Origin: Candidatus Saccharimonadota bacterium | Lineage (GTDB): Bacteria; Patescibacteriota; Gracilibacteria; BD1-5; UBA6164 | NCBI GenBank assembly: GCA_965227835.1 | Contig: OZ245768.1 | Span: 1,320,001 to 1,352,000, forward strand | Direction of reading: 5' to 3' | Length of the DNA stretch: 32,000 nt | Shown: piece by piece, positions 10,005-32,000 of the stretch | Position numbering within the stretch: position 1 is the stretch's first letter | Layout: every line of letters begins with the position of its first letter | Notes under the pieces: model-generated | The model's database searches: none | Told to the model about the DNA's origin: nothing | Seen by the model: the letters and a program-made list of their open reading frames with translations, nothing else | Made by a program: the position numbers and the translations under genes

Positions 10005-10065
10005 GAGGGCTAGGGTGAGGGCTAGGGTGAGGGTTTTTCGGAGAGGGCTAGGGTGAGGGCTAATC
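10005..10065 (+). repeat. GC-rich tandem 12-mer tract (GAGGGCTAGGGT and variants)
   Basis: GAGGGCTAGGGT GAGGGCTAGGGT GAGGGTTTTTCG GAGAGGGCTAGGGT GAGGGCTAATC. The 21-mer GAGAGGGCTAGGGTGAGGGCT (10041-10061) recurs with one mismatch at 10307-10327. Confidence 0.8.
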
Positions 10066-10178
10066 AGAAATAATCAATGGTAAAATGGCTGAAGCCATCC
10101 GTTGAAAGGAATATAATAACTTTTGGTTAATTTGCAATTAAGTTTTATTTTGCAAAAATCTTGCTATGCAAATGGCTA

Positions 10179-10220
10179 AATGCAAATACCTTAATGTGCA
10201 AATGGCTAAAGCCTTCTGCC
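10179..10220 (+). repeat. REP-like palindromic module, copy right of the IS110-family element
   Basis: AATGCAAATACCTTAATGTGCAAATGGCTAAAGCCTTCTGCC. It is preceded by partial TGCAAATGGCTAAA reiterations (10167-10187) and followed by the CTGTTCT module at 10258-10300. Confidence 0.75.
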
Positions 10221-10527
10221 AAAAAAATAAAAACTAGATATTAAGTTTATGTTACAATTCTTTATATCCCCTGTTCTCTCTCTGTTCTCTCCCCTCTCCT
10301 CTAAAGGAGAGGGTTAGGGTGAGGGCTGTACGGAGAGGATTAGAATTAAGCCTAACTTTCAAAATCTCAAACAAAATTTTAGTTATGTAAAAATTTGCTA
10401 TTTATCAAAACTCTAAAATTGATGTATTTTTAGAATAAAAAACTTTCAAGATATGACTAAAAAATTTGACTCAAAATATAAAAAAATATATAATAACTAT
10501 ATATTATATATTTAAATAATCAAAAAT

Positions 10528-14034: not shown

Positions 14035-15744
14035 TTATTTGTCCTCTAGATCCATCTCAACTCTCTCCAAGACCTCTTTTGTATTAGAATACTTTTCTGA
14101 AAAAAATCTGTGTTTCAGATTTTTTTTGTTTACAAAAATACTTTGGTAATATTTAGAATTATCATCCCATAAATTAGGCAATTTTTCCAGTCAAAGCTTA
14201 TAATAATTCAAAGACAAATCTCTTTTTATAAAATAAAGTAAGTTTCAGCAATATATATAGTTTTCAGCCGATTCCCCATATTTTATCAAATTCTCACATA
14301 GCCTTTTTGGATCTTTCTTATATTCTTTAAATATAGTTTTTTCTCTATCTTCAAACTCCATTTTTTCTAATAAATGATTATCCGTTTTGTATAGGCTATT
14401 ATTATAATACTTTCTTTCCTCCAAAAAATAATTTCAGTAAAAATATATTCAAAAAATAGAAACTAGTATAAAAAAACCAGAAATTAAATAATTATTTCAT
14501 TTTATTAACTCCTTATTAGAAGTATATATTATGCTAAGAGATAATATAACTACCAAATAACTTGCTGAGCTTGAAAAATTAAAAATATTAAACAAAAGAA
14601 AAATACTAAATATTTCTAAAGACATAGTTATATAGTTTTTATCCATTTTTTTTAAACTACCTAAAATCTTAAAAATATTTTTATAAAAACATATAATCAA
14701 GTAGATAAAAAATGATAATCAAACTAAACCAAAACTATAAAAAACATATAAAAATATATTATGAGGTCTGTCTGCTACAAATCAGTAATTTTCAAATATA
14801 TATAATTCTTTAACCTTAAAAGTTTCAAAAACCATATTAAGATTTCATAATCAATTTCACAAAGTAAATATTTTCAAATCAGATAAAACTATACTAAAGG
14901 TAGTTTCCCATATATAAAATCTAGATATAAAGCTTGAAAGCTTTTCAGGATAATATTTCAAAATTCACACTAAAAATAAAACAAATAAAAAAACCAATAT
15001 TTTATTGAATAACCTTTTTCATATTAGTTTTTTTAATTTTGAATAATTTAGATATATGAAATATGATGAAAGCAAAAATATTGCCCAAATAGATTTCGTC
15101 AGAATTATTGTTATACAAACTAATAAAAATGAAGATATTAGGATGTACTTTTTGTCTTTTTGTTTTATGTTATTTAATAATTTGCTTATAATGACTATTA
15201 TCATAAGCAAGTACATAGCAAGATAATTTGGATGTCCAAAACTTCAAATTGCCCTATTTGATAAATCTCAATAATCAAAACTAGGAAGAAGAAACTCTTT
15301 TATTGATATAATAGATACTAAAACTCAAGATAATATAGAGACTTTTAATAGTATAGTCTTTAATTTAGTATTTATTAAAATTATAAATAATCACAAAAGG
15401 TTTATAAAAAACAAAACTCAGTGTCATTTTTCATTATTTCATAAAATAGAAATTAGGGGAGATATAGAAAATAAACTTGATAAAAATAATATGAAAATAA
15501 ATACATAAATTAGCTTTGGTATATGATATTTTCTTTTTTTTAAAATACCCTCAACCAAAAAAAGAAATATAGAAAGAGAGGTAAATATATTTATGAAAGA
15601 TACTTTAAAAAATTCATAATTTCCATTTATGTGAAAGAACTTTCATATTTCCTTTATACCAAATGTATCTAATAAATGAGAGTGAATAATTGGGCTTAGC
15701 AAAAATATTAATATTACTAAACCCTTTATTGTTTTTGATAACAT
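14035..15744 (-). CDS. O-antigen ligase/polymerase-like (Wzy_C-type) multipass membrane protein with a soluble C-terminal tail
   Basis: 569 aa with TGA=Gly. It has more than 8 hydrophobic segments, and RAIGSFGHPNYLAMYLL and FVADRPHNIFLYVF resemble Wzy_C/O-antigen-ligase loops. The 105-aa C-terminal tail is hydrophilic. The standard-code ORFs at 15019-15216 and 14497-14700 are in-frame fragments of it. Confidence 0.6.
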
Positions 15745-16384
15745 TTTATTTAATTTTAAGAAGACGGGGGAGTGAGTTTTTTATATATAGTAAACTAACT
15801 TGCGAGTTATCTTACTATATATATTATAAATAAACTGGGTATTCTTTTTCAAAAATACAAACTTCTTACAATATCAAAGGGCTAAGGTTCTCTGCCTGCT
15901 AATAATAAGAAATTGCTTTTTAATTAAAACCATATTTTAAAATATTCTAATTTATCAGTTAGCTTACTATAAAAAATGATTTTGAGTGAAAATTTAAAAA
16001 GAAATTATTTTTTAAGGCAAGTGTGAATTTTCAAGTTTATCTTTTATAAAAACTTGTCAACAAAGGGCTTTAGCCTTTTGTAAAATATAAAGCCTATAAT
16101 TTTATAAAATAATATTTTAATTTTCATCCAATTTCAATCTATATTCAACAAATATTTCCAGTACTTTTAATTAATTTATTTTCTTAAATGACCTTTCAAA
16201 ATATCTTCAACAGAGAGCTTTAGCTTTCAGCACCATTTAAGAAAAATTTGAGAAATTATCTTCAGAGTAAAAAGCATATATTTTTTCTCTGCACCATTTA
16301 AGAAAAACCTGTAAAATTAATATTTTGTAAAAAATAATCTCTTTTGCTAATTTTTAAACGGAGGAATAGTTAAAAAATTCACAA

Positions 16385-21236: not shown

Positions 21237-22919
21237 TTATATTTTAATAATTATTGCTTCCTCTCATTTATAAGATAGCTCATATCATCATTTTTCTATA
21301 GTTTTCCCAGATATTACTATTCTTCTAGGTATTCCAAAAAGTTCACAATCCAAAGCTTTTTGTCAAAATCATATTTTTTTATCCATTCTATCATCTATTA
21401 TAACTTCTTTTCATTCTCTTTCTAATTTTTCAGCAATATCTTCAGCTTTTTTGAGATTTTCTTTTCACATTACTATTATATAATAATCATAAGGAGCTAT
21501 ATTATCTGGCCAGGATATTCAGTTATCATTTACAAAATATTCACTGCAAACTCACATTAATCTAGAGACTCATATTCCATAACATCACATTTCAACTTTA
21601 TCATTGCTTTTATTATTTTCATCTAAAAACGATATTCAAAAAGGTTTGGAGTATTTATCTCCCAAATAAAAAATATTTCAAACTTCACATGCTCTTCTAA
21701 AAACCAACTTTTCTCACTCTACATTCAAAGATGTAAACCCTTCTTTTGCCTTGTTAAAATCTCAAAACTCAGATATATCTAAATCAGAAATGTTTACATT
21801 TTTTGTTGATTTAGCAACCCCATTAGCTCAAGCAAAGAAATTTTTTACCGTTTTTAGAGAATTGTCTCAAAAATTCTCCATTTTCAATTTAGAATCTTTA
21901 AGGGGGCTTATAAATCATCTAGCTGTTCAAAGTTTTTCTAAATCTTCTTGTTTTGCCTGAGTGAAATTCTCACCATATTTTTTAAAAATAAATTTAGTTA
22001 GTTTTGTTTCATTTACTTCTAAATCTCATCTTATAACCACTGAAAAATATTTTTGAGAATCTGTCTTGTAAACTACTGTTTTAAGCATTTGCCAGTCTGG
22101 AGCTTTGAAATAATCAGTCATTTTATCCATTGTAACTATTTCAGATATTGAATCCATATACTCTATTTTCTCTTCTTTTTCATCTATATTTTTTGAGTCT
22201 GCAATACCACAGGCCAGTTCTAAGTTATAACAATATCAGGAGGAGTCACTTACTATAACATCTTCTCATATATCTAAGTATGTTTGAAATTCATGAGAAT
22301 TTTTATCACTAATAGCTCCTCAATCAGCTTCAGCTATAACTGTATCTTTTCAAATTCAAAGTCTATCAAATACATTTTTGTAAACTATCTTTATTTTTTC
22401 ATAAAATTCTTCAAAGTCTTTTATGTTTTTATGAAATGAATAAGCATCTTTCATTAAAAACTCCCTTCATCTCAAAAGCCCAGATTTTGCTCTTTTTTCA
22501 TTTCTAAATTTTTTTTGGATATGATATACACAGGTAGGTAAGTCTTTGTAGGATCGTATAAATTCTTTGAAAATTTTACCCACATTTTCCTCATTTGTAG
22601 GACTTATTCTATACTGCGAATTTCCCCAACCTGGCACTTTAAAATATTCAGGGATTTCCCATCTTCCTGTAGTATCCCATAATTCTTTTGGAGATAGTAT
22701 AGTCATAATCATTTCATAATATCATGCTTTGTCCATTTCTTCTCTGACTATATTTTCTATCTTTTTTAAAACTTTGTATCATATAGGTAAATATTCGTAT
22801 GCTCATGCCATTGCTTGTCTTATATATCATCCTTGTAATAATATACTGGTTGATTTATTATCACTTATTTTCGGTCTGGTTTTTAAAGTTTTAAAAGGAA
22901 ATTTGCTTAATTTTAGCAT
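21237..22919 (-). CDS. proS: Prolyl-tRNA synthetase
   Basis: 560 aa with TGA=Gly: MLKLSKFPFKTLKTRPKISDNKSTSILLQGGYIRQAMAGAYEYLPIGYKVLKKIENIVREEMDKAGYYEMIMTILSPKELWDTTGRW...[31 protein letters not shown]... These are class II motifs typical of ProRS. It is the last gene that uses TGA as a sense codon. Confidence 0.9.
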
Positions 22920-23143
22920 TAATTTTTGGTTATTTTTAAATTTGTTTAGAGATAATATATTTTTTTAAAGTTTTTTCAAATTTAGGGTTTATATAAATAT
23001 AAAAATACTTAAAAACTTTTTTTATAAGATTTATCATTGAAAAATCTTAAATTGAGTTAGTTTTTAAATATTAAACTTCAAAAAATTTTTTAAAAATAAA
23101 TAAATATATCTGAAATTTATATATTCAAAAAAAGGCAAGTTTT

Positions 23144-23683
23144 TCAATCCTGCCTTTTTTCTTGTCTCTCCCTTTTGTATTTAAATGTGTTTACCCTTAT
23201 ATATCTTTTGAGAATAATAAATATCTTTTTTTTGTTTGATTTAAAGATATTTGTGAAAGCTTTAAGTTTTTGCCTAAGTTCATTTAAAGCATTTCTCAAT
23301 TTAATATATGAAGGATGTCCAACTATATACTGCTTTTGAGTAGCTATAAATTCAACTACTTTTCTATACCATAGATATTTCATCAACTTATCTCTACCAT
23401 ATATAATTATTATCATTGATATAAATCCTAGTGACATATCAAGAAATATTATGGTAAAGAATAAGGTTTTGTTTCCTGCTACAAAAGGTAGTATAAATTT
23501 AAATGCTACCTCCACAGATTTTATTGCTATAAATATGGTAATTGTAAGTCTAGCAGACCATTTTTTTATGACTTTTTCTGCAAAAATTATTTTTATCTTT
23601 CTAATGGGGCTAAGAATTAACTCCTCTATCATTAGAAACAAAAGCAAGCTTATGAAGAAAAAAATCTTTAGTACCTTTTTCAA
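23144..23683 (-). CDS. Hypothetical 3-4 TM membrane protein with a basic C-terminal tail
   Basis: The standard-code ORF spans 23144-23713. The preferred start is TTG (complement 23681-23683), 7 nt after AAGGAG, rather than GTG at 23713. It ends in TGA; under table 25 it would run 9 codons further, to TAA at 23117-23119. No internal TGA. No family recognised. Confidence 0.55.
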   Translation of the reverse strand: MKKVLKIFFFISLLLFLMIEELILSPIRKIKIIFAEKVIKKWSARLTITIFIAIKSVEVAFKFILPFVAGNKTLFFTIIFLDMSLGFISMIIIIYGRDKLMKYLWYRKVVEFIATQKQYIVGHPSYIKLRNALNELRQKLKAFTNIFKSNKKKIFIILKRYIRVNTFKYKRERQEKRQD

Positions 23684-23756
23684 GATTTGACTCCTTGTTA
23701 AAAAAATTGACACAAAAACTAGAATAATAAAAATTTTATGTTGTCAATTTTTTTTG

Positions 23757-23784
23757 TTGACAAATTGAAATTAATTTATAATTT
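23757..23784 (+). promoter_or_regulatory. Putative sigma70-type promoter for the 23862 gene
   Basis: TTGACA (23757-23762), a 16-nt spacer, then TAATTT (23779-23784), preceded by a T-tract. The -35 box is half of the palindrome TTGTCAA-N9-TTGACAA (23741-23763), whose other half gives a -35 on the minus strand. Confidence 0.45.
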
Positions 23785-23861
23785 ATAAAATGTTCTTATT
23801 TAATAAGTAAGAATTAATTTCGTTCTTTTAACTTTTCTGAAAAAATTAAGGAGTTTATTAA

Positions 23862-24899
23862 ATGATTGGTAAATTGAGTGAATTTTTTGATAAAATTAAA
23901 GAGTTTATGGATAGTTTTCCATCAATCTCTGATATATATCAGAAATTTAGATTTGGTATTCCTAGTTTTAATTACAAAGGAAAACCCATAATCCCTTTTT
24001 TGTTTTCTCCAAGAAGATGGCTTATATTTTTAGAAAGACTATCTGTTGGACTTATTGTATCTTTATTAGCAATAATTCTTTGGGTTTTTCCTGTTAGCTT
24101 GTTTGTTGCTCCCTTTTATTCTTTTACTCATTCAGATAAGGTAGAAGAATTTGTCATATATGATGGTGCTGAGGGTCTTACCACTGCAAATGCTCTTAGA
24201 GATGGCTTGATTTATCTTGAAGACAGTCTGGTTACAAACTTTTTTGGTGTAAGAAACTGGATTGATAATGCAGAAAATGAGCAAATAGGTATGATAGAAA
24301 TGTATCGTATTTCTGCCTATATGCTTGAAAACCATTTAGGTAGAAATAGAGGTTCTGGAGGAGCTAATGAATGCTTGAAATCTGCTCGTGCTGATATTAA
24401 TGCTGATTATACAATTCCATTATTTACTAGTTACAATACTAGATTGGAAAGTGCTATAAGAAATATTGATTGCTATACCAAACAGCTTTTAGAAGATCAA
24501 TCAAAAAGTATGAATGATAAGAGAGCTGTTTTTATAGTAAATTCCGATAATTTGGCAGAGGCATTGGATAAAATTAAGCAACAACTTGATAATCCTATAG
24601 AGGCCTCAAAAAATATGTCTTTTTTTGAACAAGATGATGTTTTCTATCAAATAAGAGGAAATCTTATAGCAATGTATATTTTCCTAAAAGGTATTGATCA
24701 TGATTTTAGAGATAAAATGATTGATAAAACCTTATATGAGCAAAACTTTACTCCTGTTTTGATTCTTTTGGAAGAAGCAATAGCATATAATCCTATCGTT
24801 ATTTTGAATGCTTTTGGTCATGTTGATAAGCTTACTGCAATTTCTCTTGATATAGTTAAAAAAATGGGAGAATTGAGAGACAAACTAAAAAAAGGTTGA
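23862..24899 (+). CDS. Membrane-anchored protein of unknown function (345 aa)
   Basis: AAGGAG lies 8 nt upstream of the ATG. Hydrophobic segments are at residues about 53-86 (WLIFLERLSVGLIVSLLAIILWVFPVSLFVAPFY), followed by a soluble domain of about 250 aa. It ends in tandem TGATGA immediately before a strong terminator. It may be DUF2333-like, but I cannot verify that. Confidence 0.75.
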   Translation: MIGKLSEFFDKIKEFMDSFPSISDIYQKFRFGIPSFNYKGKPIIPFLFSPRRWLIFLERLSVGLIVSLLAIILWVFPVSLFVAPFYSFTHSDKVEEFVIYDGAEGLTTANALRDGLIYLEDSLVTNFFGVRNWIDNAENEQIGMIEMYRISAYMLENHLGRNRGSGGANECLKSARADINADYTIPLFTSYNTRLESAIRNIDCYTKQLLEDQSKSMNDKRAVFIVNSDNLAEALDKIKQQLDNPIEASKNMSFFEQDDVFYQIRGNLIAMYIFLKGIDHDFRDKMIDKTLYEQNFTPVLILLEEAIAYNPIVILNAFGHVDKLTAISLDIVKKMGELRDKLKKG

Positions 24900-24906
24900 T
24901 GAAAGT

Positions 24907-24960
24907 CCCCCCTATTTAAATCCGATTTTATCGGATTTAAATAGGGGGGCTTGTTTTTTT
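24907..24960 (+). terminator. Rho-independent terminator
   Basis: Perfect 19-bp stem CCCCCCTATTTAAATCCGA / TCGGATTTAAATAGGGGGG with loop TTTTA, followed by CTTGTTTTTTT. Confidence 0.9.
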
Positions 24961-25076
24961 GGAGGAAATTTAGAGTTTTAGTTTTTTTATTATTTAATAA
25001 ATATAGACTATTAGTCTATATAAAGCTAAAGTTATATTTTTTTAAAATTAAATTTATGTGTTTTTGAATTTTTTTC

Positions 25077-25104
25077 TTGACAAAAAAATAATAATTGTTA
25101 TTGT
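25077..25104 (+). promoter_or_regulatory. Putative sigma70-type promoter for the 25174-31316 operon
   Basis: TTGACA (25077-25082), a 16-nt spacer, then TATTGT (25099-25104). The upstream context TTTTTTTCTTGACAAA closely resembles that of the 23757 promoter (TTTTTTTGTTGACAAA). Confidence 0.45.
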
Positions 25105-25173
25105 AGGAGAACTGAATTTTGGTTTACAAAGTTCAATTTGTTCGTTAAAATAAACTAACCAAAGGAGAAAATT

Positions 25174-26913
25174 ATGAAAAAATTTTTCTTAATTGTTATA
25201 AGCTCTTTGCTTATACCATCGGTGTCAATTGCACAAACAGTTGATTATTTAAATGCAAAACCTCTTACAGATGTTGTGAATATATCTGTAAAAAGTTGTT
25301 CTCAACCAAATGTGTTACAGATTCCTGTGATTGCATGGGGTGCAGATACTGTTATGTCTTTAGCAAATGGTAATGCCACCCGCACTTCTAGTGGAAGTAT
25401 TTTTTCAGAGAAAAACCTGGACATTTCTTTGTATAGGCAAGATAATTTCATACAACAAGTCAGGGATTATATGTCTTGTAAAACCCCATATCTAAGGGGT
25501 ACACTAGGCATGATTTCTCAGGCTAATGAGTTGTTATCTCAAAATCCTAATACAAAACCTGTAATTATCCATCAGCTAAGTTGGTCTTCAGGTGGAGATG
25601 CTTTAGTTGTTAGAGAGGGTATAAACTCCCCAAGTGACTTAAGGGGAAAAACAATTGTGATGCAGGCCTATGGCCCTCATGTTGATTATGCCCTGAAAGT
25701 TATTTCAGATGCTGGAATTGATCCATCAGATGTAGAGTTTAGGTATGTAAAAGACCTACTTGAAATAGATGATAATTCAGTTTCTCCAGCTATGGCATTT
25801 CGTAATGATTCCTCTATAGATGCTGCTTTTGTTATCTTGCCAGATGCTTTAGCTTTGACAAGTGACGGTAATGTTGGTACTGGAGCAGAAGACTCTGTCC
25901 TTGGTGCTAAGATTTTGTTTTCCACAAAAACGGCTAATAGAATCATCACTGATGTTTATGCAGTTAGGTCAGATTACCTACAAGTTAATCGAGATAGTGT
26001 AAATGATTTTGTTCATGGTCTACTTATTGCCCAAGAGCAACTAGAAAATACTATGAAGCTTAAATCAGGTAACTATGATGAAATTCTAAGTGCATCAGCT
26101 GATTTACTATTGGATGACAGGGAAGCAAAGGAAGATGTTATCGCTATGTATGGTGATGCTGATTTAATGGGATATCCTCAAAATGTTGATTTTTTTGGTA
26201 ATTCCAACTCAGCTAGAAACTTTGAAAGGCTTGTAACAGAAGTTCAGAAGTCACTTTTAGATTTAGGTATGGTTTCAAAGATAACCTCCCTTGATCATGC
26301 AAAGTGGGACTATGCAAAGCTTGCCTTAGGTCTCAAAAATACTTCTGGTGTAGAAGTTCCTCGTTTTGAATCAGCAGTGGTGCAAAAAGTAGTTGAAAGT
26401 CGTACAAGACAAGGTTCTAGTGAAGAAGGTGTTTTGTTTAGATTTGAAATTTATTTTGATGCAAACCAAAATGCTTTCCCTGTAGCTAGATATCAAGAAG
26501 AATCTGCTCGTGTCGTTGATTTGGCTTCTACATATGGTGGAGCTATTCTTTCCATTGAAGGTCATTCAGATCCATTAGGATATTTGAGAAAAAAGAAATC
26601 AGGAGATTCGGCAAAAGTATTGAGTGCAGTATCTCAGTCTGCAAAAAATCTGTCTTATAGCAGAGCAAATGCAGTAAAAGATATGCTTATTTCTTATGCC
26701 TCTCAACAAGGCATTACACTAGATTCTTCACAATTTGGTATCGTTGGTCATGGTGTTAGCCAGCCTAATACTCCAAATTGTACTCTAGACTCTAGTGGAG
26801 ATATAAGTTTAAGCTGTGCCCCAGCTAATGAAGCTGAATGGAATAGAACTCGTAGAGTTGTATTTAAAATCATTCAGGTAGAAGCTGAATCAAGTGTCTT
26901 TACACCACTCTAA
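25174..26913 (+). CDS. Secreted periplasmic-binding-protein (NMT1/SsuA/NrtA-like type 2 PBP) fused to a C-terminal OmpA-like peptidoglycan-binding domain
   Basis: AAGGAG lies 6 nt upstream. Signal peptide MKKFFLIVISSLLIPSVSIAQT. The PBP-like core includes SWSSGGDALVVREGINSPSDLRGKTIVMQAYGPHVDYALKVISDAGIDPSDVEF. The C-terminus is LSIEGHSDPLGY...NLSYSRANAVKDMLISY...GHGVSQP...NRTRRVVFKI, an OmpA_C/MotB-type pattern. 579 aa, no TGA. Confidence 0.8.
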   Translation: MKKFFLIVISSLLIPSVSIAQTVDYLNAKPLTDVVNISVKSCSQPNVLQIPVIAWGADTVMSLANGNATRTSSGSIFSEKNLDISLYRQDNFIQQVRDYMSCKTPYLRGTLGMISQANELLSQNPNTKPVIIHQLSWSSGGDALVVREGINSPSDLRGKTIVMQAYGPHVDYALKVISDAGIDPSDVEFRYVKDLLEIDDNSVSPAMAFRNDSSIDAAFVILPDALALTSDGNVGTGAEDSVLGAKILFSTKTANRIITDVYAVRSDYLQVNRDSVNDFVHGLLIAQEQLENTMKLKSGNYDEILSASADLLLDDREAKEDVIAMYGDADLMGYPQNVDFFGNSNSARNFERLVTEVQKSLLDLGMVSKITSLDHAKWDYAKLALGLKNTSGVEVPRFESAVVQKVVESRTRQGSSEEGVLFRFEIYFDANQNAFPVARYQEESARVVDLASTYGGAILSIEGHSDPLGYLRKKKSGDSAKVLSAVSQSAKNLSYSRANAVKDMLISYASQQGITLDSSQFGIVGHGVSQPNTPNCTLDSSGDISLSCAPANEAEWNRTRRVVFKIIQVEAESSVFTPL

Positions 26914-26929
26914 ACTTAGGAGAGAAAAA

Positions 26930-27694
26930 ATGAAGATTGTATTATCAATTCCAATCATCCTTTCACTCTTACTTGTAGGATGTGAAGGCTCTAAAACTTC
27001 TGTGTCACAACAGCAAGAATCTAGGCAAGAGTCTGGTAGTAGCAGTTCTCCAGAAAGTAGAGAAAGTGAAGTTTGGCCATATATGCCTGATAATTTGGGT
27101 AATATATCCATAGATTCAAATGTATTGGCTACCAACTATCTAGTACTTTTAGATACTTCTGGCTCAATGGATAAACGTGAATGTTCTGGAAACAAAACCA
27201 AACTTGAAACTTCAAAAGAAGCGATAGCTGAATTTGTAGACTTAGTACCTGAAAGTGATAATCTATCACTAATGAGTTTTCATGGTATGAGAGTTGATTT
27301 TGGTTCTGGAGACACAAATAGGAAAAATTTCCTAAATGCTATTAGTCAAGAAAGATCTTCTGGGGGAACTCCTTTGCATAGTTATACGAAAGAAAGTTTT
27401 TGGATTTTGACAAATCAAGCCCAAAAACAGCTAGGTTATGGGACTTATCGTCTTGTTGTAATAACAGACGGTGCTTCTTCAGATGATGATCCAGGTCCTC
27501 TAGTTGAGGAAATAGTTCGTAGATCTCCTATTGAAATCCATGTTATTGGATTTTGTGTGGGAGAAAAACATTCTATGAATAGACCTGGTTACTCAACTTA
27601 TTACACTGCTGATAGCCCAGAGCAATTAATGGAAGGATTGAGAAAAGTTCAAGCTGAGACTTCGGATTTTACTCAAACTTCTTTTGATAATTAG
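26930..27694 (+). CDS. Lipoprotein with a von Willebrand factor A (vWA) domain
   Basis: TAGGAG lies 7 nt upstream of ATG 26930 (the 26894 start in the ORF track overlaps the upstream gene and lacks an RBS). Lipobox LLLVGC, then a Ser/Glu/Gln-rich linker. MIDAS residues are in LVLLDTSGSM, SGGTPL and VVITDGASSDDD. Confidence 0.85.
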   Translation: MKIVLSIPIILSLLLVGCEGSKTSVSQQQESRQESGSSSSPESRESEVWPYMPDNLGNISIDSNVLATNYLVLLDTSGSMDKRECSGNKTKLETSKEAIAEFVDLVPESDNLSLMSFHGMRVDFGSGDTNRKNFLNAISQERSSGGTPLHSYTKESFWILTNQAQKQLGYGTYRLVVITDGASSDDDPGPLVEEIVRRSPIEIHVIGFCVGEKHSMNRPGYSTYYTADSPEQLMEGLRKVQAETSDFTQTSFDN

Positions 27695-27701
27695 AAACCT
27701 T

Positions 27702-27733
27702 ATAGTGTACAGGAGTTAGCTCCTGTACACTAT
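27702..27733 (+). terminator. Intercistronic perfect hairpin (attenuator, processing signal or weak terminator)
   Basis: ATAGTGTACAGGAG-ttag-CTCCTGTACACTAT, a 14-bp perfect stem. It is followed only by TTCCTTA, so there is no long U-tract. Confidence 0.4.
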
Positions 27734-27756
27734 TTCCTTATAAACAGGAGACTACA

Positions 27757-29319
27757 ATGAAAAAAACTACATTAATCGCAGGAATAGTTCTTGTTGTAGG
27801 CTTAGTTATTATTGTTTTGTCTTTCTTTATCGGGAAGGCATCTGAACAATCTCAGCAAACTAGTACCAGTGATGCAAGCAAATCAAAAGGAAGCATAACT
27901 ATAGGTATGGATAACTTTATAGGTTATTTTCCCTTATGTTCACCTTATATGAAGAAGCTTATGTTGGCTGATGGATACAAGCTAGATTGTGTGGACGATA
28001 AAGCTGATTATTCCAAGCGGTTTGAAAACCTTAGAAATGAAAATTTGGATTTTGCTGTATCAACTCTAGATGCATATATTCTAACAGGAGAAAGAACTAA
28101 TTATCCTGGTATAATAACTGCAGTTTTAGATGAAAGTAAGGGGGCAGATGCAATTGTCTCTCATATAGACTATGCAAAAACTCTTACAGAACTCAAAAAC
28201 AATTCCGACTTAAGAGTAGCTTTTACTCCAGAATCTCCAAGTGATCATCTAAGAAAGGCTGTAGGGATAGATTTTGATATTCCTTTGCTAAAAGATAATG
28301 GAGAATGGTCAATTAGGGTAAACGGGTCATCGGAAGCTAGAGAGTCTCTTAAATCAGGCAAATCTCAGATAGCAATATTATGGGAACCAGATTTAAGTAA
28401 GATTTTGTCTGATAAAGACTTTGTAAAGTTACTTGGAACAGAACAGACATCTGGTTTGATTGTTGATGTACTAATTGTAAATCGTGATTATTACCAAGAT
28501 AAGCCTGAAACTGTATCTCTACTTTTGAGTAACTATTTTAAGACACTCAAATATTATCGTGATAACCTAAGTAAATTTGAATCTGATTCAGCAAATTATG
28601 CAAAAGTTTCTAAAACCGTAGCAAAATCTATGTTGAGTGGTGTTAAGTGGGTTAATCTTACTGAAAATGCTACTGACTGGATGGGAGTATCCATATCTGG
28701 AAAAGTACCTAATCATAAATTGTTTGATTCAGCACAATCAACAATTCGTATTTTAAAGGACTTTGGTGATGTAGTAGATAATCCTCTTCCAGGAGATGAT
28801 CCAAGAAGTATTATCAACTCTCAAATTGTTTCAGATCTTTACAACAGAGGAATTCAGCCCGGGCAACAAACTAGTTTTATTCAAGAACATTCACCAAACT
28901 CATTGGAAACTGATTTTAGTCCTTTGAGTGAAAATGCTTGGAATTTGTTAAACGATGTTGGAATCTTAAAAGTAAGACCTATTAGATTTGGCTCAAGTTT
29001 GGCATCTTTGGATATTGAAGATAAAAAACAGCTAGATTTAGCTGTAGATTCACTCAAAAGCTACCCCAACTTTAGGATAGAAATTCAAGGGCATACTAGT
29101 CCTAGAGGAGATGAATCTATAAATCAACAACTATCTCAGGATCGTGCAGACTCCGTAAGTCGTTATCTTTTAACAACTTATGGTATTGATAAAGATAGAA
29201 TAAGGTCAATTGGCAAAGGTTCAAATATACCCATACCCCGTAAACCGGGTGAATCTTTAAGAGCCAACAGGTCAAAACAATCTCGTGTTGAGATACACTT
29301 GAAAACAGAGGTATATTAA
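27757..29319 (+). CDS. Membrane-anchored PBP-like (NMT1/SsuA-type) domain fused to a C-terminal OmpA-like domain (second paralogous architecture)
   Basis: CAGGAG lies 6 nt upstream. N-terminal TM LIAGIVLVVGLVIIVLSFFIG. The PBP-like region runs ITIGMDNFIGYFPLC...DFAVSTLDAYIL...SKGADAIVSH... The C-terminus is FRIEIQGHTSPRGDESINQQLSQDRADSVSRYLLTTYGIDKDRIRSIGKGSNIPI...SRVEIHL, an OmpA_C pattern. 520 aa, no TGA. Confidence 0.8.
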   Translation: MKKTTLIAGIVLVVGLVIIVLSFFIGKASEQSQQTSTSDASKSKGSITIGMDNFIGYFPLCSPYMKKLMLADGYKLDCVDDKADYSKRFENLRNENLDFAVSTLDAYILTGERTNYPGIITAVLDESKGADAIVSHIDYAKTLTELKNNSDLRVAFTPESPSDHLRKAVGIDFDIPLLKDNGEWSIRVNGSSEARESLKSGKSQIAILWEPDLSKILSDKDFVKLLGTEQTSGLIVDVLIVNRDYYQDKPETVSLLLSNYFKTLKYYRDNLSKFESDSANYAKVSKTVAKSMLSGVKWVNLTENATDWMGVSISGKVPNHKLFDSAQSTIRILKDFGDVVDNPLPGDDPRSIINSQIVSDLYNRGIQPGQQTSFIQEHSPNSLETDFSPLSENAWNLLNDVGILKVRPIRFGSSLASLDIEDKKQLDLAVDSLKSYPNFRIEIQGHTSPRGDESINQQLSQDRADSVSRYLLTTYGIDKDRIRSIGKGSNIPIPRKPGESLRANRSKQSRVEIHLKTEVY

Positions 29320-29322
29320 AAT

Positions 29323-30102
29323 ATGGTAAAAGAAGACAACCCTTTAATAAATGCTGATCTATCAAGAAAAGCAATAAACAGGGCTGTTTCATCTCAAGTG
29401 TTTCAAAGCCCATTAACTCTATTTTCTTTAATAGGTGGAGTTTTAGGGCTTTGTACTGGCTTCTTGTTCTCTTCTTCAGTTTTTATATATGTTGGAGTAG
29501 GACTTTTAGCTTTTGGCTTATTTGGAAAATTATTTAACTATTTTTTCCGAAGAGGTGCTCTAGAATCTAGCTATATACGAGAAATTCAGGAAAAACAGGA
29601 AGAATATCTTTCTAAATTACCCGAAAGATTGTCTGTAGCTTTCACAGAACATGGCCATGAGAATGGATTGAAACAGCTAAATGAGCTAGAAAAATCTTTT
29701 ATTGATTTTGATAATCTTCTTGATAGAAAGTTCTCATCAAAAGGACTTACTTTAGGAAGGTTTCATGCATCTGCTAATCAAGTTAGAATGTCTGCTTTAG
29801 CTAAACTTGAGATAATATCAGATTTACTTAAGTCTATTGAAAGTATTCCTGAAGATTTGGCTAGTGATGACCAAGAAATTTCTGAAGCTAAGAAAGCAAG
29901 AATCAATCATAGATCAGATGCTCTAAAAGACATTGAGCAATATCATCATGATATAGAAAACTGTCTTACAAGTATATCAGAAATAAGTGTTGAAGTAGCT
30001 AGAATAGGCACCAATTCTGATTCTGATATTTTGTTTGAAACCCAACTGGAAAGCTTGGATCGTTTAGCGAAAAGAGCTTCTCAATTTAAGAAAGAAAGGT
30101 GA
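29323..30102 (+). CDS. 2-TM plus coiled-coil protein, XpaC-like (TelA partner)
   Basis: Two adjacent hydrophobic segments (LTLFSLIGGVLGLCTGFLFSSSVFIYVGVGLLAFGLFG) are followed by a helical, acidic cytoplasmic region. It sits immediately upstream of, and translationally coupled to, the TelA gene, as xpaC-yaaN are arranged in Bacillus subtilis. It ends in TGA. Confidence 0.5.
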   Translation: MVKEDNPLINADLSRKAINRAVSSQVFQSPLTLFSLIGGVLGLCTGFLFSSSVFIYVGVGLLAFGLFGKLFNYFFRRGALESSYIREIQEKQEEYLSKLPERLSVAFTEHGHENGLKQLNELEKSFIDFDNLLDRKFSSKGLTLGRFHASANQVRMSALAKLEIISDLLKSIESIPEDLASDDQEISEAKKARINHRSDALKDIEQYHHDIENCLTSISEISVEVARIGTNSDSDILFETQLESLDRLAKRASQFKKER

Positions 30103-30107
30103 AAATT

Positions 30108-31316
30108 ATGGAAACTAACCAAACAAAAGTAACAGCTAGAACTTCAAGTGAACTTGATAGTTTATTTGGAACATCAGATCCAAATCAGCTCCCTGAAGTC
30201 ATTGAAGATACACCATCAAGTTTGACCCTAGTGAATCATAGTGAAATTAGTCCAGAAGCATCGCAAAGGGTAAGTGCTATAGTAGAGAACTTTAACTTAA
30301 GTGATACCAACTTGGTACTTATGTATGGTTCTGAACCTCAGCGTAAACTATCAGTATTTCTTGATTCCTTACTTGAAGGAATAAAGGTCAAAGATGTAGA
30401 TGTTGCTGGAGAGATGGTTTTACAAATGTCTGATGGCATTAATTTAATGCAGCTATCAAAAGTAAAAGCTTCAATAAACAGCAAAAAAACTAGTGGCTTT
30501 ATGGTTGGTCTTATTAATTCAATTGGACTTGGTAAGAACTATATTAAAGCTTTCTACGAAAGCCAAAAATTGGTTACATCAAAAATGGATAAGATTGAGG
30601 ATATGGCCCAAAATCAAATATCTATTATTGCTGAAAGAAACGAAAAACTAGATAGCTTGGTTGAACATTCTATACAGCAGGTTCTTGAACTTGAAGTGTT
30701 TATACTTGCTGGAGAAGAAATTCTTGAGTTAGCTAAGCTACAGTATGCTGAAAAGGCCCAAGAAGTGAAAAAAAGTAGGAATCAGCTGGAAGCTTCAAAT
30801 CTTCGTGATATGGGTAGACAGCTGGCAGCTTTTGATGTAAGGCTTCTTCGTCTGAAAGAAGCATATGTTGAAGCTGGCTCTGCAACTATTGAGCGAATTC
30901 GACAAATTCAGGAAGCTGGCAAGATTGAGATTCAAGGTCTCAATGATGGTATACTATTCACTATTCCAAAAATCAAGAAAGCCATTTTGCAAGTAGCTGC
31001 TTTAAATGATATTAAAACAGCACAAGAAGCTCGTAAGAAAATGGATGAAATTGATGCTCAATTGGATGCAGAATTATCAGAATCTACAAATTCTATTCAT
31101 ACTGCAGCAAAAAAGTCTCAAGGTGATGCTTTGGATCGAGTTCGTAGGCTTGAAGGAGTCATCTCTAATATAGAAAAATCAATTCAAGATAGTATCAGAA
31201 TTGAGAAATCTACTCAAGAAATGCGAGAAGAAGCTGGTAAAACGTTAGTTGGTTTAAAAGACCGTATTACTGATACTCTAAGTGAAACTAACCTAAAAGC
31301 CGCAGGAGCTGTATAA
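30108..31316 (+). CDS. telA: TelA/KlaA-family (toxic anion resistance-like) protein
   Basis: ATG 30108 follows GAAAGGTGA by 5 nt; the ORF track's GTG at 30099 is less likely. LMYGSEPQRKLSVFLDSLLEGIKVKDVDVAGEMVLQM... and the long helical remainder parallel B. subtilis YaaN/TelA (LQYGSQAQSKL..F....L..V..KDVGE.G) as I recall it. Confidence 0.85.
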   Translation: METNQTKVTARTSSELDSLFGTSDPNQLPEVIEDTPSSLTLVNHSEISPEASQRVSAIVENFNLSDTNLVLMYGSEPQRKLSVFLDSLLEGIKVKDVDVAGEMVLQMSDGINLMQLSKVKASINSKKTSGFMVGLINSIGLGKNYIKAFYESQKLVTSKMDKIEDMAQNQISIIAERNEKLDSLVEHSIQQVLELEVFILAGEEILELAKLQYAEKAQEVKKSRNQLEASNLRDMGRQLAAFDVRLLRLKEAYVEAGSATIERIRQIQEAGKIEIQGLNDGILFTIPKIKKAILQVAALNDIKTAQEARKKMDEIDAQLDAELSESTNSIHTAAKKSQGDALDRVRRLEGVISNIEKSIQDSIRIEKSTQEMREEAGKTLVGLKDRITDTLSETNLKAAGAV

Positions 31317-31325
31317 CTCAATATA

Positions 31326-31354
31326 AGCCCTACATCTTATCTAGATGTAGGGCT
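31326..31354 (+). terminator. Perfect hairpin after telA (possible terminator or stabiliser)
   Basis: AGCCCTACATCT-tatct-AGATGTAGGGCT, a 12-bp perfect stem with no U-tract after it. Confidence 0.4.
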
Positions 31355-31391
31355 CATCAAAACTTTATTAAAATTCTTTTAGGAGAAAAAC

Positions 31392-32000
31392 ATGAAATTT
31401 AAAATCCTTAGTATAATTGCTTTATTGTTTTCATCCATAGCAATTCCAGTTCAAGCTGCCGAACAGTGCGATATAGCTTGGTCTAGATACACAGGATGGG
31501 AACCTTTAGGATATATTGAAGATTCAGGGATTGCCGATAGATGGGGAGAAAAAGAAGGTGTAAACCTAAGCTTCTCATATGTTGGTGAATACATAGAAAG
31601 TGTGAATCTTTATAATGCCGGAACCTATCAAGGTGTGGCCATTACAACTATGGATGCACTAACTATCCCTGCTGTTGGAGGAGTAGACACGACTGTGATA
31701 ATAATTGGAGACTTTTCTAATGGTAATGATGCTATTCTTATCAAAGATGAAGATAAATCAATTAACGATTTGAGAGACAAAGAAATAATTCTTGTAGAAC
31801 TTTCTGTAAGTCATTATTTACTTGCTCGCGCTCTTGGAAAAGTCGGTATGTCTGAAAGGGATATTAATTTGGTAAATACTTCAGATACAGCTATTCCTTC
31901 CTTAATTGCTACAGCAAATCAGGGAGATACTTTTGTTACATGGAATCCTATTGTAATGAAAGGTCTCCAGCAACCTGGCATTTCAAAAATATTTGACTCT
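31392..32000 (+). CDS. Secreted NMT1/SsuA/NrtA-like substrate-binding protein (third PBP paralogue; 3' end outside window)
   Basis: TAGGAG lies 6 nt upstream. Signal peptide MKFKILSIIALLFSSIAIPVQA, then AEQCDIAWSRYTGWEPLGYIEDSGIADRWGEKEGVNLSFSYVGEYIESVNLYNAGTYQGVAITTMDAL...GNDAILIKDEDKSINDLRDKEIILVELSVSHYLLARALGKVGMSERDINLVN. Open for 203 codons to the window edge. It is absent from the ORF track because no stop is reached. Confidence 0.8.
   Translation, partial: MKFKILSIIALLFSSIAIPVQAAEQCDIAWSRYTGWEPLGYIEDSGIADRWGEKEGVNLSFSYVGEYIESVNLYNAGTYQGVAITTMDALTIPAVGGVDTTVIIIGDFSNGNDAILIKDEDKSINDLRDKEIILVELSVSHYLLARALGKVGMSERDINLVNTSDTAIPSLIATANQGDTFVTWNPIVMKGLQQPGISKIFDS

What the first reader, a model, noticed from the sequence alone, without database searches (positions are those of the whole stretch)
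23117..32000. At least 8.9 kb that never uses UGA as a sense codon, inside a UGA=Gly (table 25) genome
Genes up to 22,919 use TGA heavily as Gly: tmk has 9 in-frame TGA in 217 codons, and 9 of its 11 Gly codons are TGA. The next eight genes (about 2,700 codons, rich in GGN glycines) contain no in-frame TGA. Three of them end exactly at a TGA: 23144-23146 on the minus strand, tandem TGATGA at 24897-24902, and 30100-30102. Other signals change at the same place. AGGAG-type Shine-Dalgarno sites 5-8 nt from the start occur at 6 of 8 island genes (a GGTGA variant at 30108, only a weak AGAGG at 29323), against 0 of about 15 upstream genes I inspected. GC looks higher (sampled 60-nt lines about 33-43% against about 13-30%; not computed exactly). 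TTGACA promoters and GC-rich perfect-stem hairpins appear. The block therefore looks written for the standard code. It could be a very recent transfer from a code-11 donor, and the bacterial host or prey of an epibiotic CPR cell is an obvious candidate donor. It could be a mobile segment kept readable under both codes. It could also be an assembly or binning chimera. No integrase, att repeat or tRNA marks the left junction (22,920-23,143).
Basis: partly seen in the sequence, partly recalled or inferred. Interest (0 to 1): 0.92.

Follow-up and report, generated by a model that had tools for sequence, protein, structure and literature searches.

The report
Standard-code gene island in a UGA=Gly genome
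A bacterium that reads the stop codon UGA as glycine carries at least 8.9 kb of genes that never use UGA that way. These genes were most likely imported from ordinary-code bacteria, which shows that a changed genetic code does not stop genes coming in.

Summary
All 20 genes left of 22,964 use TGA as glycine: 251 TGA against 116 GGN, and in EF-Tu 17 of 19 TGA positions align with Gly in E. coli EF-Tu. The eight genes from 23,144 to 32,000 have 0 TGA among 158 Gly codons (P about 1e-79). They keep AGGAG ribosome-binding sites, hairpin terminators and three TGA stops.

The block has two modules. The first is a divergent pair, a small membrane protein plus DUF2333. This pair also occurs, TGA-free, on an independent code-25 contig, directly next to a gene with 28 in-frame TGA. 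The second is the first six genes of a nine-gene envelope/ABC-transport cassette (NMT1-OmpA, vWA, NMT1-OmpA, membrane protein, TelA, binding protein...). The same gene order occurs in standard-code Proteobacteria such as Kordiimonas.

The nearest relatives are only 50-70% identical, so no recent donor was identified. The block shares the host's rare CpG depletion and tetranucleotide signature, which argues against an assembly chimera.

Best reading: a genuine horizontally acquired island of standard-code origin that is still young in the recoded lineage (0.62). Rivals: selection to stay readable in both codes (0.15), and chimera (0.10). It is a new member of a known kind and of moderate interest.

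The parts
21237..22919 (-). proS (prolyl-tRNA synthetase), the last native code-25 gene: 30 in-frame TGA against 15 GGN
22920..23143 (.). Left junction: very AT-rich spacer with no tRNA, integrase or exact repeat
23144..23713 (-). Small membrane protein (189 aa from a GTG start), with no TGA among its 4 Gly codons. It ends at a TGA (23144-23146), which under code 25 is read through for 8 more codons to the TAA at 23117-23119. The family is tiny: 10 representatives among 1.84 billion.
23714..23861 (.). Divergent promoter region with the palindrome TTGTCAA-N8-TTGACAA and an AAGGAG ribosome-binding site for DUF2333
23862..24902 (+). DUF2333 protein (345 aa), with 0 TGA among 18 Gly codons. It has a tandem stop TGATGA (24897-24902). 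Under code 25 it is read on to 24944, and the deposited protein is 360 aa.
24907..24949 (+). 20-bp perfect-stem hairpin followed by a T run (intrinsic terminator)
25077..25104 (+). Promoter-like site TTGACA-16-TATTGT upstream of the operon
25174..26913 (+). Operon gene 1: secreted protein (579 aa) with an NMT1-like binding-protein fold and a weak OmpA-like C-terminal match; 52-54% identical to the first gene of the proteobacterial cassette
26930..27694 (+). Operon gene 2: vWA-domain lipoprotein (LVGC lipobox); an alternative GTG start lies at 26894
27757..29319 (+). Operon gene 3: NMT1-like protein with an OmpA peptidoglycan-binding domain (520 aa)
29323..30102 (+). Operon gene 4: membrane protein with no family match (259 aa). 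Its TGA stop overlaps the GTG start of telA (GTGA). Under code 25 it is read through for 9 more codons.
30099..31316 (+). Operon gene 5: TelA-family protein (405 aa)
31392..32000 (+). Operon gene 6: NitT/TauT-type ABC substrate-binding protein (TIGR03427-like), cut by the window end; the deposited protein is 337 aa

Best explanation
The right-hand block is a genuine genomic island of standard-code origin in the chromosome of a code-25 (UGA=Gly) bacterium of the Gracilibacteria/Absconditabacteria type. It has two modules that arrived by horizontal transfer. Module 1 is a divergent pair, a small membrane protein plus DUF2333. Module 2 is a proteobacterial-type envelope/ABC-uptake cassette: two peptidoglycan-anchored binding-protein-like proteins, a vWA lipoprotein, a membrane protein, TelA, and a NitT/TauT binding protein. 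Judging from the cassette in other genomes, a permease, an ATPase and a protein of about 200 aa should follow beyond the window. The genes evolved where UGA terminates translation, so they contain no sense UGA. Because the host reads every UGA as Gly, nothing inside the genes is misread. Only the three genes that end in UGA gain 8-14 extra residues plus the Gly, before the next UAA or UAG. The island is TGA-free because it has not been in the recoded lineage long enough for GGA-to-TGA changes to accumulate. For the same reason it still carries AGGAG sites that native genes lack. Shown: the codon statistics, the synteny with standard-code genomes, the presence of module 1 in a second code-25 genome, and the host-like CpG depletion. 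Inferred: the direction and timing of transfer, expression, and the reason for the CpG similarity. That reason could be fast CpG-specific decay, a filter against CpG-rich incoming DNA, or a CpG-poor donor.
For: 0 of 158 Gly codons are TGA, against 68% in all 20 native genes. TGA=Gly is verified on EF-Tu. The gene order NMT1/OmpA-VWA-OmpA-266 aa-TelA-SBP-permease-ATPase-200 aa recurs in standard-code genomes: Kordiimonas (L003/L004, 41% GC) and L006-L010 (50% GC). Their flanks differ, and the five window proteins detectable there (TelA is not) are 29-65% identical to them. The best named hits for the binding protein are Alphaproteobacteria. Apart from the copy on L005, the closest DUF2333 relatives are standard-code sequences at 49-57%, and those that carry a name are mostly Campylobacterota. 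L005, an independent code-25 contig, carries the same pair TGA-free (0 of 13 Gly in DUF2333) 44 bp from a gene with 28 TGA. The membrane gene's ancestral TGA stop lies at the homologous position there and is read through for 50 residues. All ORFs are full length compared with their orthologues. AGGAG precedes 5 of 8 island genes and 0 of 20 native genes. Same-genome signature: rho(CpG) is 0.25 on the left, 0.21 in the pair and 0.32 in the operon, against 0.41-1.13 in comparators. Codon-boundary CpG is 0.32, 0.18 and 0.37 against 0.50-0.98. Tetranucleotide correlation with the left is 0.80-0.85, inside the left's own range of 0.78-0.88, while the best outsider reaches 0.72. The window lies on a 1,489,121-bp contig that was annotated under code 25. 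HGT into this lineage is documented: 126 genes in Vampirococcus (PMC8080830).
Against: No donor closer than 66-70% identity was found among 5.8 billion proteins. A truly recent transfer therefore needs an unsampled donor lineage. The block's synonymous codon usage (r = 0.96 with the host) and its CpG depletion look ameliorated. Under simple neutral drift, that much amelioration should also have produced some TGA and eroded the AGGAG sites. No mobility gene or att site lies at the left junction, and the right end is outside the window. No reads were available to verify the joins at 22.9-23.1 kb and 24.9-25.2 kb. The operon itself was not found in any other code-25 genome.
Confidence: 0.62

Rival explanations
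1. The island is kept free of sense UGA by selection rather than by youth. One version: it belongs to a gene pool exchanged between code-25 cells and their standard-code partners, as proposed for code-11-compatible phages of these bacteria. Another version: its genes must be translated when the UGA-decoding tRNA is limiting.
For: The block looks compositionally resident. It shows CpG depletion, a host-like k-mer signature and host-like codon usage, yet has 0 TGA among 158 Gly codons even though 61 of them are GGA, one step from TGA. The DUF2333 pair is TGA-free in two code-25 genomes whose copies are only 62-66% identical. Those two copies resemble each other more than any standard-code homologue does. 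A possible third recoded copy of the membrane gene also carries a read-through right after its K-rich tail. TGA-free, doubly compatible phages of Gracilibacteria have been described (PMC10746230).
Against: No mobility, phage or plasmid genes were found, and no relatives in phage or viral collections apart from one bacterial-looking IMG/VR contig. In L005 the pair is compositionally unlike its host (GC3 0.31 against 0.22; CGN rho 1.03 against 0.38). That fits independent recent uptake better than long maintenance. Three genes end in TGA, so they are not strictly identical under both codes. AT-rich standard-code donors with partial CpG depletion exist (L012, rho 0.41).
Confidence: 0.15
2. The contig is an assembly chimera. 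Standard-code DNA from a co-occurring AT-rich bacterium was joined to the code-25 genome, either at 22.9-23.1 kb or at 24.9-25.2 kb.
For: Every sign of zero residence time is present: no TGA, intact AGGAG sites, TGA stops, and a GC step near 25 kb. The junctions are low-complexity AT-rich DNA. The right end cannot be seen. The genome was not retrievable from the collections.
Against: The pair next to the left junction occurs in an independent code-25 assembly beside TGA-rich genes. CpG depletion in the operon (77 sites against 249 expected) is incompatible with every comparator, with P from 0.006 to 1e-11. It deviates only marginally from the host rate (P = 0.038). The tetranucleotide signature lies within the host's own range. 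No exact repeat lies at either junction. A bacterium abundant enough to be co-assembled would be expected to have relatives closer than 70% in the databases. At 1.49 Mb, the contig does not look much longer than the closed genomes of this group (1.3-1.34 Mbp; PMC6851277, PMC8080830).
Confidence: 0.1
3. These are native code-25 genes that lack TGA by chance or because of their amino-acid content.
For: GC3 and synonymous codon usage outside Gly resemble the host.
Against: P is about 1e-79 given 158 Gly codons. All 20 native genes have at least 2 TGA, including three transposases. The closest homologues and the synteny lie in standard-code bacteria.
Confidence: 0.01

Closest known systems
Horizontally acquired genes in Absconditabacteria/Gracilibacteria (for example the 126 HGT genes of Vampirococcus lugosii, PMC8080830)
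   Same: Genes of non-CPR origin sit in a UGA=Gly genome. The incoming direction is tolerated because a standard-code gene has no internal UGA.
   Different: Here a contiguous run of at least eight genes still shows the donor code intact (0 TGA, TGA stops, AGGAG sites). The papers read here report their HGT by phylogeny; the passages I retrieved do not mention a code signature, but I did not read the papers in full.
Code-11-compatible phages predicted to infect Gracilibacteria/Absconditabacteria (Liu et al. 2023, PMC10746230)
   Same: There are no in-frame TGA, and TGA stops are followed closely by another stop. The sequence is associated with a code-25 host.
   Different: This block is chromosomal and carries envelope/transport genes. 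It has no phage genes and no phage-database relatives. In that study all integrated prophages were TGA-dense.
Proteobacterial nine-gene cassette NMT1/OmpA-vWA-NMT1/OmpA-membrane protein-TelA-NitT/TauT ABC transporter (Kordiimonas L003/L004; L006-L010)
   Same: The six genes visible in the window have the same order, orientation and protein lengths (579/584, 254/262, 520/522, 259/266, 405/405).
   Different: Identity is only 29-65%. The window's TelA has no BLASTP-detectable similarity to the Kordiimonas TelA but is 70% identical to that of L001/L002. GC3 is 0.21 against 0.26-0.37 in the Kordiimonas cassette genes, and CpG is strongly depleted.

Membership tests
Translation table 25 genome (UGA = Gly) | In-frame TGA in conserved genes aligns with conserved Gly | tested here: met
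   For the left side: 17 of 19 TGA positions in EF-Tu align with Gly of E. coli EF-Tu. Overall, 251 TGA occur in 20 genes.
Translation table 25 genome (UGA = Gly) | Loss of RF2 and presence of tRNA-Gly(UCA) | not testable with these tools
   Neither gene lies in the window. Only tRNA-Ala and tRNA-Asp were found.
Horizontally acquired genomic island | Closest homologues and synteny lie in a different lineage from the host's | tested here: met
   The operon is syntenic with Kordiimonas and other standard-code Proteobacteria. DUF2333 is closest to Campylobacterota apart from one code-25 copy.
Horizontally acquired genomic island | Composition differs from the host genome | tested here: inconclusive
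   Atypical: TGA use, SD use, GC1/GC2 and Arg/Ile codon choice. Host-like: GC3, CpG depletion and tetranucleotide signature.
Horizontally acquired genomic island | Integrase, tRNA target or flanking direct repeats | tested here: not met
   None at the left junction or inside the block. The right end is outside the window.
Horizontally acquired genomic island | Patchy presence among relatives of the host | tested here: inconclusive
   The code-25 contig L005 has the DUF2333 pair in a different neighbourhood and lacks the operon. No close relative of the host genome was retrievable.
Code-11-compatible elements of code-25 hosts (PMC10746230) | No in-frame TGA, and TGA stops backed up by a nearby second stop | tested here: met
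   0 of 158 Gly codons are TGA. Backup stops lie 8, 14 and 9 codons downstream, although the chance expectation is about 22 triplets, so this adds nothing.
Code-11-compatible elements of code-25 hosts (PMC10746230) | Phage or other mobile-element gene content | tested here: not met
   No phage, plasmid or defence-system matches of note.
TelA (PF05816) | Pfam score above the gathering threshold over the full profile | tested here: met
   86.4 bits against a cut-off of 30, covering profile positions 2-331 of 332.
DUF2333 (PF10095) | Pfam score above the gathering threshold | tested here: met
   51.3 bits against a cut-off of 22. There are 193 homologues, and the top 120 carry PF10095.
TIGR03427 putative urea ABC transporter binding protein | Score above the NCBIfam cut-off, and linkage to urea carboxylase genes | tested here: inconclusive
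   225 bits on the 203-aa fragment against a cut-off of 333.9 for a whole protein. No urea carboxylase lies next to any copy of the cassette examined.

The most novel reading that the evidence does not exclude
The island, or at least its DUF2333 pair, is actively kept free of sense UGA inside code-25 genomes. It may belong to a gene pool shared between UGA=Gly epibionts and their standard-code partners, or it may have to be translated independently of the UGA-decoding tRNA. This would be the first chromosomal 'bilingual' segment maintained by selection in a recoded bacterium.
Probability: 0.15. Interest if true: 0.85.

Novelty: new member of a known kind. Interest (0 to 1): 0.5.

Why it matters
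Codon reassignment has been proposed as a genetic firewall. This locus is a clear natural example that the wall lets genes pass in one direction. A multi-gene standard-code operon can sit intact in a UGA=Gly chromosome, at the cost of only 9-15 extra C-terminal residues on the three genes that end in UGA.

The absence of TGA also gives a built-in clock for dating transfers into recoded genomes. Here that clock reads zero, which conflicts with the host-like CpG depletion. That mismatch points either to a very fast CpG-specific process or to selection on code compatibility. Both can be tested.

Tried and rejected
Fetching the source contig or its neighbours by exact protein look-up failed for four window proteins. 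I therefore could not examine the right end of the island or the rest of the genome.

Scans of GTDB genomes and JGI metagenomes with TelA and DUF2333 alignments found nothing. The genome scan with the first operon protein found only Kordiimonas.

Markov-corrected tetranucleotide z-scores were too noisy at 7 kb to be useful: left against left gave only 0.04-0.43.

Phage or plasmid origin is rejected. The single IMG/VR hit, L013, is a 49% homologue at 52% GC.

A single-block transfer from Campylobacterota is rejected. DUF2333 in L011, L012 and L014 has neither the membrane partner nor the operon next to it.

UGA=Trp (code 4) is rejected by the EF-Tu alignment.

Chance absence of TGA is rejected.

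A literature search found no described chromosomal TGA-free island in these phyla, only phages.


Full report
CHECK OF THE OBSERVATION

With only TAA and TAG as stops, the window resolves into long ORFs on the left that are broken under table 11. From 23.1 kb onward the ORFs are intact under table 11.

The left-hand genes are ordinary housekeeping and mobile genes. They include EF-Tu, thymidylate kinase, DnaG, SerRS, ProRS, a VanY peptidase, and IS4-like, IS200 and IS110 transposases.

- All 20 left-hand genes contain at least two in-frame TGA, in total 251 TGA against 116 GGN.
- In EF-Tu, 17 of 19 TGA positions align with Gly of E. coli EF-Tu, so the code is table 25 and not table 4.
- The eight genes from 23,144 to 32,000 (2,766 codons) have 158 GGN and no TGA. 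With the host's TGA share this gives P = 10^-79 for the block and 1e-9 for DUF2333 alone.
- Three genes stop at TGA, one of them at a tandem TGATGA.
- AGGAG precedes five of the eight starts on the right and none of the twenty on the left.
- Strong hairpin terminators follow DUF2333 and the vWA gene.

GC rises near 25.0 kb, not at 23.1 kb, and the rise is almost entirely in codon positions 1 and 2. GC3 is 0.19-0.25 on the right against about 0.17 on the left.

WHAT THE BLOCK IS

The block has two modules.

Module 1 (23,144-24,902) is a divergent pair. One gene encodes a 189-aa membrane protein with no family assignment; its family has only ten representatives among 1.84 billion. The other encodes a DUF2333 protein.

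Module 2 (25,174 to the window end) encodes six proteins:
- a secreted NMT1-like/OmpA-like protein of 579 aa
- a vWA lipoprotein
- a second NMT1-like protein with a clear OmpA domain (520 aa)
- a 259-aa membrane protein
- a TelA-family protein
- the first 203 residues of a NitT/TauT-type binding protein that matches TIGR03427

The same gene order and nearly the same protein lengths occur in an uncultured Kordiimonas genome (L003/L004, 41% GC) and in several contigs of about 50% GC (L006-L010). There the six genes are followed by a permease, an ATPase and a protein of about 200 aa. All of these loci are TGA-free in frame and sit among ordinary proteobacterial genes with different flanks. Identity to five of the window's six operon proteins is 29-65%; TelA is not detectable there. 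The window therefore cuts a nine-gene cassette after its sixth gene, and the island should continue about 2.8 kb further.

I infer, but have not tested, that the cassette is a peptidoglycan-anchored envelope module coupled to an ABC importer. It matches no known defence system and has no phage or plasmid relatives of note.

ORIGIN

The deposited proteins of the window lie on a 1,489,121-bp contig. That contig was annotated under code 25, because the DUF2333 entry is 360 aa, which is the length with the TGATGA read through.

The best non-self relatives among 5.8 billion proteins are:
- 70% for TelA, on short 36%-GC contigs L001/L002 that are also TGA-free
- 66% for the binding protein; the named hits are Alphaproteobacteria
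- 66% for DUF2333

Below that, DUF2333 hits run at 49-57%; those that carry a name are mostly Campylobacterota, and the contigs I examined (L011, L012, L014) are standard-code. They have neither the membrane partner nor the operon next to them. The two modules therefore have different affinities, and no recent donor has been sampled.

THE KEY COMPARISON

The 66% DUF2333 relative lies on L005, an independent 8.3-kb contig that is itself code 25. Its ribosome recycling factor gene has 5 in-frame TGA, an ABC ATPase has 8, and a PKD protein has 28. L005 carries the same divergent pair.

- Its DUF2333 has 0 TGA among 13 Gly codons, keeps a GGAGG site and a hairpin, and ends 44 bp from the 28-TGA gene.
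- The first TGA of its membrane gene falls exactly where the window's gene stops, just after the K/R-rich tail. It is read through for 50 non-conserved residues, against 8 in the window.

So a TGA-free pair of standard-code ancestry does reside in code-25 chromosomes, in two independent assemblies and in different neighbourhoods. In L005 the pair is compositionally unlike its host (GC3 0.31 against about 0.22; CGN rho 1.03 against 0.38). That looks like a recent arrival there.

CHIMERA OR RESIDENT?

The left 23 kb has an unusual DNA signature. I compared the block and all available outside loci against it.

| Measure | Left 23 kb | DUF2333 pair | Operon | Comparator loci |
|---|---|---|---|---|
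| rho(CpG) | 0.25 | 0.21 | 0.32 | 0.41-1.13 |
| CpG across codon boundaries (independent of codon and amino-acid choice) | 0.32 | 0.18 | 0.37 | 0.50-0.98 |
| Composition-normalised tetranucleotide correlation with the left | 0.78-0.88 (left against itself) | 0.80 | 0.85 | best outsider 0.72 |

- On the left, ACGT occurs once against 52 expected, and TCGA and GCGT are also very rare. The block shares this depletion of ACGT, TCGA and GCGT.
- Poisson tests reject every comparator's CpG rate for the block, with P from 0.006 to 1e-11. The host's rate is only marginally off (P = 0.038).
- No exact repeat lies at either candidate junction.

Together with L005, this makes a chimera unlikely, at about 0.1. 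Only reads can exclude it.

THE UNRESOLVED TENSION

These features say 'young in this lineage':
- no TGA, although 61 Gly codons are GGA, one step from TGA
- intact AGGAG sites in a host that does not use them
- retained TGA stops
- full-length ORFs

These features say 'resident':
- the host-like CpG depletion
- synonymous codon usage correlated with the host (r = 0.96 for non-Gly codons, against 0.89 with L001/L002)

Three explanations could reconcile them:
- CpG loss is much faster than G-to-T change, for example through methylation-driven deamination.
- Restriction by the host filters out incoming DNA that is rich in CpG sites.
- The donor was an AT-rich, CpG-poor standard-code organism. 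L012 shows that such organisms exist in this gene family, with rho 0.41.

The alternative is that TGA is selected against in these genes. Native mobile DNA in the window (three transposases) is TGA-rich. Integrated prophages of these phyla are reported to be TGA-dense, while some of their free phages are TGA-free and doubly compatible (PMC10746230). Long residence normally does produce TGA, so the selection reading stays open at about 0.15.

COMPARISON WITH WHAT IS KNOWN

HGT into Absconditabacteria is documented (PMC8080830), and the idea that UGA reassignment shapes gene flow is discussed there. TGA-free phages of code-25 hosts are described in PMC10746230. I found no report of a chromosomal, non-phage, multi-gene TGA-free island in these phyla in the searchable library.

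I therefore classify this as a new member of a known kind: a horizontally acquired island, unusually legible because the donor's code is still visible. Interest is moderate (0.5). It would be high if the selection reading were shown.

Noticed in passing
window 1-32000: CpG is extremely depleted across the whole window (rho 0.25-0.32). ACGT occurs once on the left against 52 expected, and TCGA and GCGT are about as rare, while CCGG is nearly normal on the left. This suggests CpG methylation with decay, or avoidance of restriction sites.
   Followed up: partly
window 4001-5200, 5480-5929, 8866-9948: Three transposase genes lie within 6 kb: IS4-like DDE with DUF4372, IS200 Y1, and IS110. They carry 11, 6 and 10 in-frame TGA, so the mobile DNA of this lineage is itself recoded.
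   Followed up: partly
window 8544-8576, 9990-10327, 10075-10224: 33-nt repeats (up to 91% identical) flank the IS110 gene. A G-rich motif (GAGGGCTAGGGTGAGGGCT) is repeated four times just downstream, in a non-coding stretch of about 780 bp.
   Followed up: no
window 7168-8442 (-): A 418-aa protein has a prepilin-type N-terminus (FTLVELIVVVTILAIIG) but no Pfam match. 28 of its 33 Gly codons are TGA, the highest share in the window.
   Followed up: no
L005 188-886 (-) and window 23117-23713 (-): Read-through of the ancestral TGA stop adds 50 residues to the membrane protein in L005 and 8 in the window. The deposited window protein (P0244) is annotated from an internal Met as 106 aa. The clustered library translates these TGA as W.
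   Followed up: yes
P0248 (homologue of window 23144-23713): A 195-aa homologue has a W directly after its K-rich tail, followed by 20 unrelated residues. It may be a third recoded genome carrying the same read-through. I could not fetch its DNA.
   Followed up: no
window 30099-31316 vs L003 8737-9954 and L001 169-1377: The window's TelA is 70% identical to that of L001/L002 but has no BLASTP similarity to the equally long TelA at the same position in the Kordiimonas cassette. Its neighbouring genes show the opposite pattern. The cassette appears mosaic, or its TelA diverges very fast.
   Followed up: partly
window 23729-23764 and 25049-25084: The upstream regions of DUF2333 and of the operon share a 36-nt AT-rich motif that ends in TTGACAAA. 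Each copy is 75-78% identical to a third copy at 14101-14136, which served as the reference. This may be a common promoter/UP element or chance similarity in AT-rich DNA.
   Followed up: no
window 16227-16319: Two 32-nt direct repeats (84% identical, 61 nt apart) lie in the spacer between the gene at 14035-15780 and the VanY gene.
   Followed up: no
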